The translations under genes were made by a program, and so were the position numbers. The notes under the pieces were generated by a model. The model ran no database searches, was not told the origin of the DNA, and saw only the letters and a program-made list of their open reading frames with translations. Positions 11,655 to 17,909 of a DNA stretch of 64,000 bases are shown here, in pieces. The first letter of the stretch is position 1; each line of letters starts with the position of its first letter. The stretch is from Chthonomonadaceae bacterium (GTDB taxonomy: Bacteria; Armatimonadota; Chthonomonadetes; Chthonomonadales; Chthonomonadaceae), in contig DASRGZ010000215.1 of the NCBI GenBank assembly GCA_035650735.1, forward strand, positions 1 to 64,000. The letters run 5' to 3'.

Positions 11655-12947
11655 ATGAAACGAATGGCTCTTTTTGCCGCAATCGCTGCGGTCGGACTCT
11701 GGGGACTTTCCGGCTGCGCCCGCCCTCAGCCCGTCACGATGGCCCCGCCCGTCGGCGGCGGGATAGCGCAGGGACAGGTTCCGATGGCCCCGCCCCCAAA
11801 CGCGGGCGTCTATTCCTGGCTGGATGTGCCGCAGGGCCAGCAGGTTCCCGTGCAGCGCGTCGTCTTCGACCAGGGCGGCTACCAGATCTACGCGGCCACC
11901 GGCGAAACCATCGTCGTGCCGTTTGCTAACCAGAACCTCTACGTCATGAAATTCGGGCGCACCTACGGCTCGACCATGTACTTTGTCAACGAGGGGGATG
12001 CGCCCGTTCTCTACTTGCGCCCCGGCGACTTCCTGGAGAACGCGGCGGCCCAGGGCGCTCGCTGGTACCCCATCCCGGACAACTACCCGTATACGCGCCC
12101 GATGTACGTCAGCCTGGCCCCCACCTGGGGAGATTACGTGGCGATGGGCTGGTATCCCGGCATGGTCACCTACGGCGGCATGTGGAGCTATCGCCCGTTT
12201 GCGGCCTCCTTTGTCTGGATGCCCGGCTTCAGCATCAATATCGGCGGAACACGCTACCCCAATTACGTCAGCTATCGGACGTATTACACCTCGCACCCCG
12301 GCTATATCCGCAACCGTGTCGTCTATAACAACTACACGACGACACGCACCGGCTCGTTCGGCGCAGGCCGCATGAGCCGCCAGACCGGCTCCTTTCACCC
12401 GAATCGCGGCTTTGGCACAGGCGGGACCTTCGGCGCGACGGGCTTGACCGGATCGTTCGGAATGGGACGCCGCAACGCCACCTTTGGCGGCGGCAGCACA
12501 TTCGGAACCCGGCGTTTTGGCGGCAGCGCTTCCGGTAGTTTCGGCGGCTCCTTCCGCAGTACAAGCCCCCCTTCCAGCAGTTCCTTTGGCGGGACACGCT
12601 CCTTTGGTGGCGGCGGTTCCTTCGGCGGCTCCTCTGGTGGCGGCAGACGCTCGTTTGGAGGCTCCTTCGGCTCTGGAAGCAGCACAGGCAGCAGCTTCGG
12701 CAGCTCGTCCGGTTCCGGCAGTTCGTTTGGCGGAGGGCGCAGTTCCTTTGGCGGCAGCACTTTCGGCGGCACTTCCGGCGGACGCCGTTTTGGCAGCGGC
12801 GGCTTGTTCGGCGGCGGGCGCTCCTCCGCAAGCGGCGGCTCCTTTGGGGGGACGCGCTCCTATGGCGGGGGCGGCGGTTCCTTCGGCGGCGGTTCCTTTG
12901 GTGGAAGGCGCTCGTTTGGAGGCTCCTTCGGCGGGCGCCGCCGTTAA
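11655..12947 (+). CDS. Lipoprotein with long Gly/Ser FG-repeat C-terminal tail
   Basis: Lipobox LSGC; Tyr-rich folded region; ~200 aa tail with about 24 FG dipeptides; AGGAG SD. Confidence 0.85.
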   Translation: MKRMALFAAIAAVGLWGLSGCARPQPVTMAPPVGGGIAQGQVPMAPPPNAGVYSWLDVPQGQQVPVQRVVFDQGGYQIYAATGETIVVPFANQNLYVMKFGRTYGSTMYFVNEGDAPVLYLRPGDFLENAAAQGARWYPIPDNYPYTRPMYVSLAPTWGDYVAMGWYPGMVTYGGMWSYRPFAASFVWMPGFSINIGGTRYPNYVSYRTYYTSHPGYIRNRVVYNNYTTTRTGSFGAGRMSRQTGSFHPNRGFGTGGTFGATGLTGSFGMGRRNATFGGGSTFGTRRFGGSASGSFGGSFRSTSPPSSSSFGGTRSFGGGGSFGGSSGGGRRSFGGSFGSGSSTGSSFGSSSGSGSSFGGGRSSFGGSTFGGTSGGRRFGSGGLFGGGRSSASGGSFGGTRSYGGGGGSFGGGSFGGRRSFGGSFGGRRR

Positions 12948-12992
12948 ATCGGCTGGCCCGCCTTCCTTCTGAGGAAAGGACTCACGCACTCC

Positions 12993-14525
12993 ATGTCATC
13001 CTCCCCTGCCCAGCCGTCGCATCCCTTTGGGGACAGCCGCTGGCCTGTCTTGCTGATACTATTGCTGGTCATTGCGGGCGGCATCGTGGCCTACCGCTAC
13101 TTCTTCAACCGTCTAGGCGAGGCTGCCGTCCAGATGATACCCGGCGACGCCATGCGGGTCGTGACACTGGACACGAACGCCTCGCCGCAGCAGGTGCTCG
13201 TCTTTAGACGGATCGACGACGCCTTCAAGCGCGAGAAGGTAGATACCGGCTTTGACGACATGGTGACGAGCATGATGCAGAACTCGCCCGTCGCCAAAGA
13301 GATTCGTCCCCTCTGCGCCAAAAGCTTTGCCTTCGCCGCGCTGAATACCGGCGGGCCGGGCAGCGGCCCGGACTTCGTGCTATTCTGTGCCCTGAAAGAT
13401 CCCGGAAAAGCTGCTAACGTCCTGGCGAAATACGGGCAGAAGAGCACCCAGGACGGCCTGGACTACTATCAGCTTAAAAAGGAGAACTCCTGCGCCGCGA
13501 TACTCTCCAACTACCTGGTCGTCTCGCAGAAGCCGGGAGCGCTGACCCGAGTCGAGCAGGTACGGAAAGGCGAAGCGAAGCCGGTCGTGTCGCTGCCGGA
13601 GTATCAGCAGGCCCGCGCCGCGCTGCCCGCCGACGCCAACCTGATGGTCTTCGTCTCGCCGAGGGCGCTCTCCAAAATGCAGGAGGCCGGCAAGTCGCGG
13701 GGCGTCAACCCGCTTCCAAACACGCGCTGGATGGCGGTGGGCGCGGCAGTGCATGACAAGGGATTGGATGCAGTCTATCGTGTTCCGCTGCCCTCCGGAC
13801 AGGCGGCTGGCTGCCACAGGCTGGAATGCCCTCCACCGACCAGAGTCATGCTGTAGGCAAAGCCTTGAAACATGCCACCAAGCAACTCGACTCGGAAAAC
13901 GAGAGGCTGGACCGGGCGAAACGGGCCATGGAGCGCTTTAAGCGCAAAAAGCACGTCTCCGATATTACTATGAGCGCGCCAGAGGCAGGAATGGTGCTAA
14001 GCGGTCCCGCTCCGCAACCCAAACCGCCGATAGAAAAGTGGGCCAAAAAGAAAGTCGGTAGTTTACGCCCAGGTCGGCCAGGCCGTTCTGCTGGCCTCTT
14101 CGCAGAAGAGGCTGGACCGCGCGCTGGCGGCCTACAATCGCGGCGCAAACTCCCTGGCCGACGACCCGGCCTATGCGCAGATGCGCGCCATGCTCCCTCA
14201 GGGCGCGCAGGACGTGCTGCTGGTCAACCTGCCCGGCATCATGAATGCGCTGCGGCCTACTCTGGCGCGCTCGATGGGCAAGCCGTCCGGCTCTTCCTCC
14301 GTCTCCGTAGACGATATCGTGCAGATGTTTGGCCCGACCAACGGCGGCATCGCCGGCACCCAGAAATGCGATGGCCAGGAGATGACCCTGACCTTCTTCC
14401 TGCCTATAGACTATGACCGGCTTATCCATGTCATCGGCCAAATGACCGGCCAATCCGCCAACGGCCCATCGCGCGGCGGCAGCCCGAACGCCATGCCCAC
14501 AGCAGGCGGCGGCAATCTGCCCTAG
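12993..14525 (+). pseudogene. Membrane-anchored DUF3352-like protein interrupted by a foreign segment
   Basis: ORFs 12993-13856 and 14181-14525 share a frame; host-like coding resumes near 14052 (KSVVYAQVGQAVLLASS); internal repeat YQQARAALP / YAQMRAMLP; stops lie only within ~13790-14050. Confidence 0.7.
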
Positions 14526-14562
14526 CGCAAGCACTTCTATCTAAAGAAAGGGAACAGCAGCC

Positions 14563-15009
14563 ATGAATAATGTGGTATTCAGTACCGGAGGCGATTGGGA
14601 TACTACCACGCTCTACAATAACGGCGAAGAAGTCCTGGCGACCCAGCTTTTCGTGGAATTGCATGCGGGTCGGAATGAGTTCGGCGAGCCGGCCATGGGC
14701 GGCATCAACACCGGCGGCGAAATTACCGCCATCATTCGCCCGCAATATAATCCTAATGAAGAGATCGGTATTTTCCCCGGACGGCTGGAGATGAATTTTC
14801 CCGGCCACTCCATTGTCATAGAGAACACGCACCCTGGTTTCGCGTTTGAGTTTACCCGCGTGTGGTACAATGGCCGGGATGTCACAAATAACGTCATGGA
14901 TGTGTACGTAGACATTAACGCGGCGGATAACATCGTCAAAGCCTATATCACGCTCTATAGGCCCCACTGGCTTTCCGCAGACGAAGTGGCTACGTACAAC
15001 ATCCTGTGA
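14563..15009 (+). CDS. Hypothetical beta-rich protein, family X copy A (148 aa)
   Basis: AAGGGA SD; internal duplication TTLYNNGEEV / TRVWYNGRDV; no signal peptide. Confidence 0.8.
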   Translation: MNNVVFSTGGDWDTTTLYNNGEEVLATQLFVELHAGRNEFGEPAMGGINTGGEITAIIRPQYNPNEEIGIFPGRLEMNFPGHSIVIENTHPGFAFEFTRVWYNGRDVTNNVMDVYVDINAADNIVKAYITLYRPHWLSADEVATYNIL

Positions 15010-15081
15010 GTCGCACCTCGCTTCCCGTTCCTTCTTGCAGAGGAACGCGACCCTGCGCATGCGCTTGAGGATTAACGTAAC

Positions 15082-15780
15082 ATGAAACCGTGTGTCAATT
15101 CCTGGCTGCCTCGTCTGGCCCGGCTTGTCCTCGTGGGCCTACTGGCCGCGCTGCTGGCGATGAACATCGACTCCGCCTACGCCCAGCGCGGCAGATTTGG
15201 CGGGGGCTCATTTGGCGGCGGGCGCTCTTTCGGGGGCGGTTCGTTCGGAGGGGGCGGCAGTTTTGGGGGCGGTCGTTCCTTTGGCGGGGGCGGCTCCTTC
15301 GGTGGCGGCTCCTTTGGAGGCGGACGCTCCTCCGGCGGCTCGTTTGGCGGCACGCGCTCCTATGGGGGAGGCGGCTCCTTTGGCGGCGGCAGCTTGTTCG
15401 GCAGGAGCCGCTCCAGTGGCTCCTTTGGCGGAAACCGCTCGTTTGGCGGCTCCTTTGGACGCAGCGGCTCGTTTGGCTCCTCCGGCGGCTATACGCGCTC
15501 TTCAAACACGTATACCTACCGGGGCATCACCGCGCCCGTCCGCTCTTACGGGGGCATCAACCACTTCAGCTTTTACTGGACTCCCGCCCCGCCCTGGTAC
15601 TATTGGACGCCGTTCCATCCCGCGTTCTACTTCTATCCGCCCGTCTACGACGGCGGGTATTGGTACCCGGGCGGCTTCAACTGGGGCCATTTCTTCATTG
15701 GCCTGATCGTCTTCGCCTTTGTGCTGTGGCTGATCAGCCGCCTCTTCCGACCCAAATACGTGCGCTACACGAGCTACTGA
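15082..15780 (+). CDS. Exported FG-repeat membrane protein
   Basis: Signal peptide (AYA-Q); about 15 FG in (SFGG)n; Tyr/Trp/Pro-rich segment; C-terminal TM helix; GAGG SD. Confidence 0.85.
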   Translation: MKPCVNSWLPRLARLVLVGLLAALLAMNIDSAYAQRGRFGGGSFGGGRSFGGGSFGGGGSFGGGRSFGGGGSFGGGSFGGGRSSGGSFGGTRSYGGGGSFGGGSLFGRSRSSGSFGGNRSFGGSFGRSGSFGSSGGYTRSSNTYTYRGITAPVRSYGGINHFSFYWTPAPPWYYWTPFHPAFYFYPPVYDGGYWYPGGFNWGHFFIGLIVFAFVLWLISRLFRPKYVRYTSY

Positions 15781-15879
15781 GCTTTGCCGGCCCGCAAGTA
15801 CCGATCTGGGGGCGGCAAGCCCACTCGTTTACGGGTGGGCGGCTACTCTCTTTGAACAGGGAACGAGAAAGGAGCCGCC

Positions 15880-16398
15880 GTGTTCGGCAGACATCCGCAG
15901 AGTCCGAACGGCTCTGCCCCACCTTACCGTGCGGCCCATGAGGTCGCTAAAATCCAGGGCGGCGGACTGGTGCAGGTCATCGTCACCAGCCTCACCCCGA
16001 TGACCTATTACCTGTTCCTTAACGACCAGGCCGTCTCGCAGATGGATATCGAGAGCCTGTCCGTCTCCATTGAAGCGCCAGAGGGAACGGGCAACGGAAT
16101 CGTGCGCGCCACGCTCTCGCGCTACGTCGGTACCGTCACCGGCCAGAAGACCCTCCAGCGCACGGAGTTGTTTCCCTGCACCCTGGAGATCGTGGCGCTG
16201 GGACGGCGTATCTCCGTTACCTGCATGCGCCCCGACTCCCTGGAGGGCTGCTGGATCAGCCTGGGCCTCGCGCCCGACGGCACCGGCTCCGACATCACCG
16301 GGGCCAAAGCCCTGCGATTCCTGTTGACCGAAGGCATCCTGGATGCGAAGCTAACCTGGGAAGACGGTCAAACCGAAGACCTCCTGCCCCAAACGTAG
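15880..16398 (+). CDS. Hypothetical beta-rich protein, family X copy B (172 aa)
   Basis: AAAGGAG SD plus GTG; motif similarity to 14563-15009. Confidence 0.75.
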   Translation: MFGRHPQSPNGSAPPYRAAHEVAKIQGGGLVQVIVTSLTPMTYYLFLNDQAVSQMDIESLSVSIEAPEGTGNGIVRATLSRYVGTVTGQKTLQRTELFPCTLEIVALGRRISVTCMRPDSLEGCWISLGLAPDGTGSDITGAKALRFLLTEGILDAKLTWEDGQTEDLLPQT

Positions 16399-16610
16399 AG
16401 GCTGTGACAGAGAATAGGGGATAGGGTTTAGGCCCTTCTACCACAGACGTAGAGGCTGTGATATAATAGCGATAGAAGTCACAAATGGGTGTGGACGGGC
16501 CCTTGCTGGCCCTGGTTGGGAGTGTTTGTCGTCCCCGGTTCCGAGTTGCCAACGGCCCTTGTCGAGCCGTTGCGCCTATCGAGCCGTGGGAGAAAGGCGA
16601 TGCACTGGCA

Positions 16611-17909
16611 ATGATGTCCTGCAAACTATCCGGTTCACGGTCGACCCATAGAGCGCGAAAGACAACTCGGCAACGGGTGCGCTCCCTGGGATGGCCCCTG
16701 GCCCTGGCTCTGGTTCTGGCCGCAGGCGCGCTCGTTGGGCCGCGCCCTGCCTGCGCCGATCAGGGGACAAGCGCCGGCAAAACGACGGATGCTAAGGACA
16801 AAACCGCCGCGCCCGTCCTCACCGAAGACCCGGAAGTCCGGCTGGGCCGCGAAAGTGCGGAAGAGAACGATAAACAGGTCAAATTTGTCACCGATGCGGC
16901 CCTGGTTGAGCGCGTCAACCGTATCGGGCAGGAGATCGCCGCCGTCGCCAACAAAGAGGCCATTCCGGCGCTCTGGGGCGACTCCAAGCTCAAGAAGTTC
17001 AACTACACCTTTAAGATCGTAGATGATAAGGATGTCAACGCCTATTCCCTGCCCGGCGGATTCATCTACGTTGACAAAGGCTTGCTGGACTTCGCCCACT
17101 CGGACGATGAGCTGGCCGGCGTTCTGGCCCACGAGATCGCCCACGCCGCCCACCATCACATGCTCAAGCTCCTCCGCGAGCAGAACAAGATTGATCGTGT
17201 GCTGCTGCCGCTTAAGCTGATCACTCTGGCCGTCGTGCTTGGCGCCCGGGGCAACGCCAACGACGCGCAGGGCATTATGCTCGGCTCTCAACTCTATACC
17301 ATCGCCAAAATCAACACCTACGGCATTGAGGCCGAAAAGGACGCCGACCAGACGGGGATTCGCCTGCTGACGCACACGCGCTACAATCCGGTCGGGCTCT
17401 ATAGCTTCATGCTGCGCCTGGCGGTGCGAGAACAGCAGCGCGGCCCGGTCGAGCTGGGCATCTTCCGCACGCACCCGCCCGGCCCCGAGCGCGCCGAAGC
17501 CGCAAAAAAGCTCCTGGAAGAGTTGAATATCCCAATTCACCTCAGCGAGGTCGATCCCAGGCTCAGGCCGACCGTCACCCTGACCAAAGACGCCAAAAGC
17601 GGCGCGGAACTGGCCGAGATACGGATACGCGATATCGTGCTCTGCCGTGTGGCTGCCGCCGACGGACTGAGCGCCCAGGAGCGGGGCGAGCGCATCGCAA
17701 CACGCCTCAACAGCCTGGTGGATGCCAACCTCCAGCCGTTTGAGATCAAGACCAGCCCGGACCAGACTCGCGTTCTGGCGCGCGGCTTCACCATCCTGAC
17801 CCAGGACGACGCTGCTGCCCAGCAGAAAACCGTTCCAGCATTGGCCCGCGAGTTTACCGACGCGATGTCTCAGTATCTCCTCAAACAGCAGTTGGAGTCC
17901 GGAATCTAG
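16611..17909 (+). CDS. M48 family zinc metallopeptidase (exported)
   Basis: NAYSLPGG, DELAGVLAHEIAH, EKDAD, THPP; start uncertain (16485 or 16611). Confidence 0.9.
   Translation: MMSCKLSGSRSTHRARKTTRQRVRSLGWPLALALVLAAGALVGPRPACADQGTSAGKTTDAKDKTAAPVLTEDPEVRLGRESAEENDKQVKFVTDAALVERVNRIGQEIAAVANKEAIPALWGDSKLKKFNYTFKIVDDKDVNAYSLPGGFIYVDKGLLDFAHSDDELAGVLAHEIAHAAHHHMLKLLREQNKIDRVLLPLKLITLAVVLGARGNANDAQGIMLGSQLYTIAKINTYGIEAEKDADQTGIRLLTHTRYNPVGLYSFMLRLAVREQQRGPVELGIFRTHPPGPERAEAAKKLLEELNIPIHLSEVDPRLRPTVTLTKDAKSGAELAEIRIRDIVLCRVAAADGLSAQERGERIATRLNSLVDANLQPFEIKTSPDQTRVLARGFTILTQDDAAAQQKTVPALAREFTDAMSQYLLKQQLESGI

What the first reader, a model, noticed from the sequence alone, without database searches (positions are those of the whole stretch)
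11655..16398. Candidate undescribed envelope system: five-gene cluster with two exported FG-repeat proteins
Seen: five co-oriented genes. They encode a lipoprotein with a ~200 aa acid-free Gly/Ser/Arg tail (about 24 FG), a membrane-anchored DUF3352-like protein, an unknown protein, a signal-peptide protein with about 15 FG followed by a Tyr/Trp-rich stretch and a C-terminal TM, and a paralogue of the unknown protein. Established: dense FG motifs in polar spacers form cohesive phases in nucleoporins; short GGFG tails occur in DUF1190 and TPM-domain envelope proteins. Inference: both FG domains would lie outside the cytoplasmic membrane and could co-assemble into a gel, sieve or amyloid scaffold built or controlled by the other three genes. 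The downstream M48 protease may process them.
Basis: partly seen in the sequence, partly recalled or inferred. Interest (0 to 1): 0.85.

Follow-up and report, generated by a model that had tools for sequence, protein, structure and literature searches.

The report
Undescribed bacterial FG-tail membrane module
Two exported proteins with long, positively charged glycine-serine-phenylalanine tails sit beside a signal-less protein with no recognised fold, forming an undescribed membrane module kept together in two distant bacterial groups; whether the tails gel like nuclear-pore proteins is untested.

Summary
The FG tails are real, the two densest in the genome, but the unit is not five genes. DUF3352 is a broken, occasional neighbour (2 of 19 family loci; its middle is replaced by wzc-like DNA). 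M48 follows only within this family.

The core is g3 (148 aa, no signal, all-beta model, no fold match), g4 (signal, SFG tail, aromatic segment, TM, short tail), g5 (remote g3 paralogue, hhalign 94%) and lipoprotein g1. In 301 phylum genomes, all 50 with g3 carry g1 or g4, 45 within 4 kb. A g3-g4 pair recurs in 65 of 78 loci whose proteins are named Kapabacteria/Ignavibacteria; there g4 has few FG (median 4). Tails of g3-linked g1 are acid-free (19 of 20); 15 unlinked paralogues are not. What is conserved is a cationic, acid-free tail plus g3, more than FG density.

Best reading: a two-sided membrane module for envelope homeostasis, built like FLAP1/FlpA (DUF1517); a cyanobacterial g1 look-alike sits beside soluble DUF1517. 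Function and binding are inferred, not shown. A nucleoporin-like gel remains possible but minor. Look-ups in earlier scan notes found no same module.

The parts
11655..12947 (+). g1: lipoprotein with Pro linker, conserved aromatic domain (about aa 52-230, no Pfam/NCBIfam match) and a 199-aa acid-free Gly/Ser/Arg SFG tail ending GRRR; accessory or alternative FG partner of g3
   Evidence: (L-x-G-C and GRRR invariant in 9 of 9)
12993..14525 (+). Disrupted DUF3352 gene (N part 12993-~13823, C part ~14052-14525, same frame); not part of the core
13824..14051 (+). About 230 bp replacing about 555 bp of the DUF3352 gene; includes 128 bp 86% identical to a wzc-type chain-length/kinase gene on contig C126
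   Evidence: bridged by contigs of three runs
14563..15009 (+). g3: core gene; 148 aa, no signal peptide, ten-strand beta model made of two ~65-aa repeats, no fold match; always accompanied by g1 or g4
   Evidence: (pLDDT 91)
15082..15780 (+). g4: core gene; signal peptide, SFG tail, conserved W-x(2-3)-PFHPAFY segment, TM and short basic tail ending in an RY-containing motif
15880..16398 (+). g5: remote paralogue of g3, found only in genomes that have g3 (44 of 44)
   Evidence: (pLDDT 86)
16485..17909 (+). M48 metallopeptidase (BepA-like, far below the equivalog cut-off); family-level neighbour only; true start may be 16608

Best explanation
A two-sided cytoplasmic-membrane module. Outside (inferred from signal, lipobox and TM): g4 and/or lipoprotein g1 display long, disordered, acid-free Arg/Ser/Gly polymers studded with Phe. 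These would bind anionic envelope polymers or lipid headgroups and associate weakly with each other, and an aromatic segment packs at the membrane surface. Inside (inferred from the lack of a signal): g3, often with paralogue g5, is a beta scaffold held at the membrane by g4's short C-terminal tail and by an exposed aromatic-Leu-Gly loop. The module most likely organises or reports on a membrane patch during envelope or proton-gradient stress, as proposed for the similarly built FLAP1/FlpA. Shown: gene content, linkage, tail composition, paralogy, absence of family matches. Inferred: topology, contacts and function.
For: g3 never lacks an FG-type partner: 50 of 50 genomes carry g1 or g4, 45 of 50 within 4 kb; g4 (36 of 36) and g5 (44 of 44) never occur without g3 in 301 genomes (one weak hit each dropped for g1 and g4). 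The g3-g4 pair recurs in a second phylum-level group: 63 of 78 loci, median gap 2 nt, plus 2 further profile hits; hhalign 95%, 20 shuffles at most 1% (names). Tail selection: 19 of 20 g3-linked g1 tails have no D/E and all 20 end GRRR/GRHR, whereas 15 of 15 unlinked paralogues carry acids and lack a lipobox. The g4 cytoplasmic tail is conserved in both groups (RY motif; SSF-x in 60 of 78). FLAP1/FlpA-type proteins have the order signal, GGGSF, Tyr/Pro-rich, TM, cytoplasmic domain, and their mutants show altered proton handling (PMC9174948, passages). A cyanobacterial g1 look-alike lies directly behind a soluble DUF1517 protein in 17 of the 23 loci parsed (of 30 fetched).
Against: 14 of 50 genomes have g1+g3+g5 with no g4 found (full-length g4 re-search of 5 of them gave no convincing g4; its 2 hits were not inspected), so no transmembrane link is evident there. 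The RY tail is missing in all 4 examined g4 of family f29, whether adjacent to g3 or not, so tail loss is confounded with kinship. g3/g5 are not DUF1517 homologues and the g4-FlpA profile match covers only the signal peptide. The g1-cyanobacterial link is weak (hhalign 23%, 1 of 40 shuffles higher; no direct HMM hit in 5 genomes). No pspA or stress gene is a conserved neighbour. The genomes are related, so counts are not independent.
Confidence: 0.4

Rival explanations
1. g3/g5 are dedicated cytoplasmic chaperones or export helpers that bind the aggregation-prone SFG/aromatic segments of g1 and g4 before Sec export; the exported tails then act as cationic surface or periplasmic binders.
For: The only thing g1 and g4 share is the acid-free SFG tail and an aromatic stretch (their conserved domains do not match), yet either one suffices as g3's neighbour: 19 genomes g1+g5, 18 g4 without g1, 8 both. 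This explains the 14 g4-less genomes.
Against: g3 is kept where g4 has few FG; unlinked g1 paralogues are exported without an adjacent g3, and 7 genomes carry only such paralogues and no g3; g4's conserved cytoplasmic tail is left unexplained.
Confidence: 0.2
2. One reading: the exported FG domains form a cohesive gel, sieve or amyloid scaffold in the envelope.
For: One FG per 6.6-8.3 residues, 24 of 26 and 15 of 15 Phe followed by Gly, no acids; density kept in 30 of 30 g4 (5.7-13.9 FG per 100 aa) and 17 of 20 linked g1 (at least 5 per 100). Charge-depleted FG domains phase-separate (PMC9579204, abstract start in listing).
Against: About 10% Arg gives a strong net positive charge, unlike charge-depleted Nup98 domains; SFGG in Gly/Ser is closer to keratin glycine loops or RGG-type domains (recalled). 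FG is sparse in the second group and in 2-3 linked g1; both FG genes are adjacent to g3 in only 8 of 50 genomes.
Confidence: 0.15
3. The Arg/Phe/Gly tails are nucleic-acid or polyanion binders (extracellular DNA/RNA, polyphosphate, or cytoplasmic RNA if the g1 tail stays inside) and g3/g5 handle the captured ligand or signal.
For: Strict exclusion of acids and terminal RRR; F/YGG motifs bind RNA in hnRNPA2 (PMC9067507, title and abstract start).
Against: No nuclease, transporter or competence gene is a conserved neighbour; g1 has no canonical TM after its signal (best KD19 0.84).
Confidence: 0.12
4. A protein-conducting FG phase: g4/g1 tails and aromatic segments form a selective conduit at the membrane, like the PEX13 YG phase of peroxisomes (recalled), and signal-less g3/g5 are receptors or cargo.
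For: Architecture of low-complexity FG domain, aromatic segment and membrane anchor; obligate soluble partner without signal peptide and without known fold.
Against: No cargo, ATPase or channel gene is linked; one TM only; lipoprotein-only versions exist; FG is sparse in the second group.
Confidence: 0.05

Closest known systems
FLAP1/FlpA (DUF1517, PF07466) of cyanobacteria and plastids
   Same: Order signal - GGGSF Gly-rich - Tyr/Pro-rich - TM - cytoplasmic domain equals g4 plus g3 as separate genes. A g1 look-alike lipoprotein with an acid-poor Arg/Ser/Gly tail, mostly ending in an Arg run, sits behind soluble DUF1517 in cyanobacteria.
   Different: No DUF1517 in 301 phylum genomes; g3/g5 do not match it; g4 tail is far longer and FG-denser; the FlpA domain is fused.
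PspA-associated envelope operons with DUF1190/DUF4247/Ctha_1186 lipoproteins and TPM-domain YdjH (PMC11237479, section 19 read)
   Same: Lipoproteins or membrane proteins with low-complexity segments, paired with intracellular beta-rich proteins; Kapabacteria-type g4 carry a G-x-M-x-G-Y-x-x-G motif like the one I recall for DUF1190.
   Different: No Pfam match to these families; no pspA, DUF350, spermidine synthase or ATP-grasp gene recognised as a conserved neighbour; the own pspA is on another contig.
FG nucleoporins (Nup98) and PEX13 YG domain (PEX13 recalled)
   Same: Dense Phe-Gly motifs in acid-free polar spacers.
   Different: Gly 37-46%, Arg about 10%, SFGG not GLFG/FxFG; no scaffold pore; no homology; behaviour untested.
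DUF3352 (PF11832) and peptidase M48 (PF01435)
   Same: The flanking genes are members of these families.
   Different: DUF3352 is broken here and rarely adjacent; M48 adjacency is confined to one family.

Membership tests
FLAP1/FlpA (DUF1517) | PF07466 domain | tested here: not met
   0 of 301 phylum genomes; hhalign of g3 and g5 profiles to soluble DUF1517 0.6% and 0.1%
FLAP1/FlpA (DUF1517) | Signal + Gly-rich GGGSF segment + single TM before a cytoplasmic part | tested here: met
   g4 architecture; profile match only over the signal peptide, so analogy, not homology
FLAP1/FlpA (DUF1517) | Role in proton homeostasis | not testable with these tools
   needs mutants
Cyanobacterial DUF1517-linked lipoprotein (no Pfam) | Homology of the g1 beta domain | tested here: inconclusive
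   Atlas structure rows 1-3, TM 0.44-0.45 on a low-confidence model; hhalign 5.6-23%, 1 of 40 shuffles higher; no HMM hit in 5 genomes
DUF1190/DUF4247/TPM PspA-associated operons | Pfam domain in g1 or g4 | tested here: not met
DUF1190/DUF4247/TPM PspA-associated operons | Linkage to pspA, DUF350 or polyamine genes | tested here: inconclusive
   none recognised among conserved neighbours, but neighbours were read by eye or clustered, not all scanned with Pfam
FG nucleoporin-like phase | High FG density in acid-free disordered spacers | tested here: met
FG nucleoporin-like phase | Charge-depleted spacers | tested here: not met
   about 9-11% Arg/Lys, net positive
FG nucleoporin-like phase | Cohesive phase with selective permeability | not testable with these tools
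   needs purified protein
Bacterial lipoprotein (g1) | Hydrophobic signal ending in a lipobox Cys | tested here: met
   L-x-G-C invariant in 9 of 9; pattern found in 19 of 20 linked copies; no SignalP available
Known folds (g3, g5), including phage hub/tail-tube fold | Structural match | tested here: inconclusive
   best Z 3.7 (rmsd 5.4, 83 aligned) and 4.0 (rmsd 6.0, 94 aligned); Foldseek no hit at E<=0.001
DUF3352 | Intact PF11832 reading frame | tested here: not met
   matches profile 5-274 of 536, then interrupted

The most novel reading that the evidence does not exclude
A bacterial FG-phase system: membrane-tethered SFG polymers form a cohesive, selective layer or conduit at the envelope, served by a dedicated new-fold partner (g3/g5) as receptor or chaperone. 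It would be a prokaryotic counterpart of nucleoporin or PEX13 phases, old enough to be shared by Armatimonadota and Kapabacteria/Ignavibacteria.
Probability: 0.15. Interest if true: 0.9.

Novelty: new variant of a known kind. Interest (0 to 1): 0.6.

Why it matters
It defines an undescribed module (g3-g4 core, with g1 and g5) of families without Pfam/NCBIfam models, including a confidently modelled protein with no recognised fold, kept together across two distant groups. It offers a natural test of whether exported low-complexity FG tails condense in bacterial envelopes. It may also be a split, non-homologous counterpart of FLAP1/FlpA, whose partners were unknown in the 2022 review read here (PMC9174948, passages).

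Tried and rejected
Complex prediction of g3 with the g4 TM and tail gave no verdict (0.31 against a mark of 0.32); it is not used as evidence.

No RNA holder was listed, so co-transcription is untested. Promoter/terminator scan was at chance level.

Fold searches for g3 and g5 found nothing clear. Several top g5 rows were phage baseplate hub proteins at Z 3-4, too weak to name; PHROGs gave no hit shared by more than 1 of 52 members and viral contigs held no g3. PDB sequence searches were empty or chance. Atlas feature hits were all below 0.9.

Fusions: none among 84 g4 hits of 177-279 aa (weak test) and none evident among 78 g3 representatives (one ankyrin hit and one apparent chimera set aside). 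Tim44 was not found in the own genome. No plasmid hit for g1. No convincing g3 in 5 cyanobacterial genomes (one hit at E 0.06); g1, its cyanobacterial look-alike and DUF1517 were not found in the 80 Kapabacteria-type loci. Assembly artefact as the cause of the DUF3352 break was rejected.

Literature: searches listed no paper describing this module (listings only); timed out and 142 errored. Subscription papers and supplements of PMC11237479, which could list such neighbourhoods, were not seen.
Full report
Observation. The window encodes, on the + strand, g1 (11655-12947), a DUF3352 gene, g3 (14563-15009), g4 (15082-15780), g5 (15880-16398) and an M48 peptidase. Close homologues are labelled Chthonomonadaceae, so the source is taken to be Armatimonadota. 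g1 has a lipobox-like LSGC and a 199-aa tail with 24 FG, 21 Arg and no acidic residue; g4 has a signal-like N-terminus, 15 FG in 106 aa, an aromatic stretch and one TM. FG and SFG counts exceed all 1000 composition shuffles, and the two proteins are the most FG-dense of 27,252 six-frame ORFs (15 and 13 per 100 aa). The next two, at 8, look by eye like envelope proteins too. g3 and g5 have no signal-like hydrophobic N-terminus.

The DUF3352 gene is not a working member. Its frame is interrupted at about 13824-14051, where residues of about 288-472 of an intact orthologue are replaced by DNA that includes 128 bp 86% like a wzc-type gene elsewhere in the genome. Contigs from three runs bridge the break. 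It lies beside g3 in 2 of 19 family loci and 0 of 19 loci from other families. M48 follows g5 in 11 of 19 family loci (others: absent, scattered or cut by contig ends) and in none of the 19 from other families, although one has an M48 upstream of g1.

The real unit. In one sample of 301 phylum genomes, g3 was found in 50 (six families), g5 in 44, g4 in 36 and the g1 domain in 38, after dropping one weak hit each for g4 and g1. Every g4 and g5 genome has g3; every g3 genome has g1 or g4; 45 of 50 have one of them within 4 kb on the same strand. The arrangements are g1+g3+g5 (19), g3+g4+g5 (9), g3+g4 (9), all four (8), g3+g5 only (3) and scattered (2). These genomes are kin, so the counts are not independent tests. 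A more independent test came from distant g4 homologues. Of 80 metagenome loci, 78 gave a parsed g4-like gene; 63 have a ~160-aa gene directly upstream (median gap 2 nt) and 2 more have a g3-profile hit; 10 of the other 13 start near a contig edge and 3 showed none by my filter. This upstream family matches g3 (hhalign 95%, E 2.6e-8; 20 shuffles at most 1%) and its members are labelled Kapabacteria, Ignavibacteria or Bacteroidota. So g3-g4 is the cross-group core.

g3 and g5. AlphaFold2 gives confident beta models (pLDDT 91 and 86) with a similar strand order. Deep profiles support paralogy (93.9%) and a shared ~65-aa repeat (g3 halves 44%; g3 C-half to g5 N-half 94%). No Pfam, NCBIfam, PHROG, PDB-sequence or fold match was found; a missing match does not prove a new fold. 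g3 homologues show an aromatic-Leu/Phe-Gly loop near the C-terminus in both groups, which I infer may touch the membrane.

What the tails conserve. Among 20 g3-linked g1 copies (one 12 kb away), 19 have no D/E in the tail, all end GRRR or GRHR, and 17 have at least 5 FG per 100 aa; two have only 1-2 FG. Fifteen unlinked paralogues (two further hits dropped by filters) lack a lipobox, carry 0.5-18% acids and, bar one, at most 3.4 FG per 100 aa. All 30 g4 examined have 5.7-13.9 FG per 100 aa and 26 have no acid. In the second group g4-like proteins have only 1-10 FG (median 4), but their low-complexity stretch is still acid-poor (53 of 4778 residues) and their cytoplasmic tail ends SSF-x in 60 of 78. 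Acid exclusion with about 10% Arg is therefore more conserved than FG density, which argues against a nucleoporin-like gel as the core function without excluding it in Armatimonadota.

Relation to known systems. The Atlas structure search pointed weakly to cyanobacterial lipoproteins. One was retrieved, is present in 34 of 48 genomes searched, has the same layout with an acid-poor tail mostly ending in an Arg run, and lies behind a soluble DUF1517 protein in 17 of 23 parsed loci (30 fetched). Its homology to g1 is suggestive only (23%, 1 of 40 shuffles higher). Membrane-bound DUF1517 proteins (FLAP1/FlpA) read signal, GGGSF, Tyr/Pro-rich, TM, cytoplasmic domain, which is g4 plus g3 in one chain, and affect proton handling (PMC9174948, passages read). 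DUF1517 was not found in 301 phylum genomes and is not homologous to g3/g5. PspA-linked operons with low-complexity lipoproteins and intracellular beta proteins are a second analogue (PMC11237479, section 19), but no membership feature was met. The module thus works like these, at best, and belongs to none.

Mechanism. Most likely (0.4) a two-sided membrane module: cationic aromatic polymers outside, a g3/g5 scaffold inside, coupled through g4's tail or the membrane itself, serving envelope or proton homeostasis. Its weak point is 14 genomes with g1+g3+g5 and no g4 found, which favours the rival that g3/g5 chaperone the shared tails before export (0.2). Loss of the RY tail in family f29 is confounded with kinship. 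The gel or sieve (0.15), nucleic-acid binding (0.12) and FG-conduit (0.05) readings remain open. Keratin, PEX13 and DUF1190 motif comparisons are recalled, not tested.

Novelty. Seven literature searches (listings only) and four look-ups in earlier scan notes showed no description of this module; one note describes a different aromatic-domain lipoprotein pair. Verdict: a real, undescribed module, smaller and more widespread than proposed, with unknown function; interest 0.6.

Noticed in passing
window 13824-14051: A wzc-like fragment replaces the middle of the DUF3352 gene; it matches neither wzc-type copy in the assembly exactly (68% and about 44-50% aa), suggesting capture from a lost or unassembled copy.
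   Followed up: yes
window 15818-15845: A short palindromic intergenic element between g4 and g5 recurs at 3 other places in the genome (C10, C46, C132) and once in the window.
   Followed up: partly
L235:640-1521 and L244-L273: Cyanobacterial lipoprotein without Pfam match, with an Arg/Ser/Gly tail, paired with a soluble DUF1517 protein; two DUF1517-TIR fusions lie next to the pair (L267, L269).
   Followed up: partly
L087-L101: A family of secreted, non-lipoprotein paralogues of the g1 domain with varied Gly/His/Asp/Arg low-complexity tails, up to 6 copies per genome; one copy follows a possible anti-sigma-like N-terminus (L095, by eye).
   Followed up: partly
L036:1063-2154, L040:8753-10150, L041:7016-8014, L042:6365-7402: In several g1-less family genomes a different secreted Pro/Gly-rich protein sits directly upstream of g3, possibly replacing g1.
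   Followed up: no
G000 C72:18709-20385 and C218:17794-20553: Two other exported proteins with FG-rich glycine stretches, one acidic and TPM-like, one secretin-like by eye.
   Followed up: no
L026:6205-7611: Two unrelated genes are inserted between g3 and g4 in genome G017.
   Followed up: no
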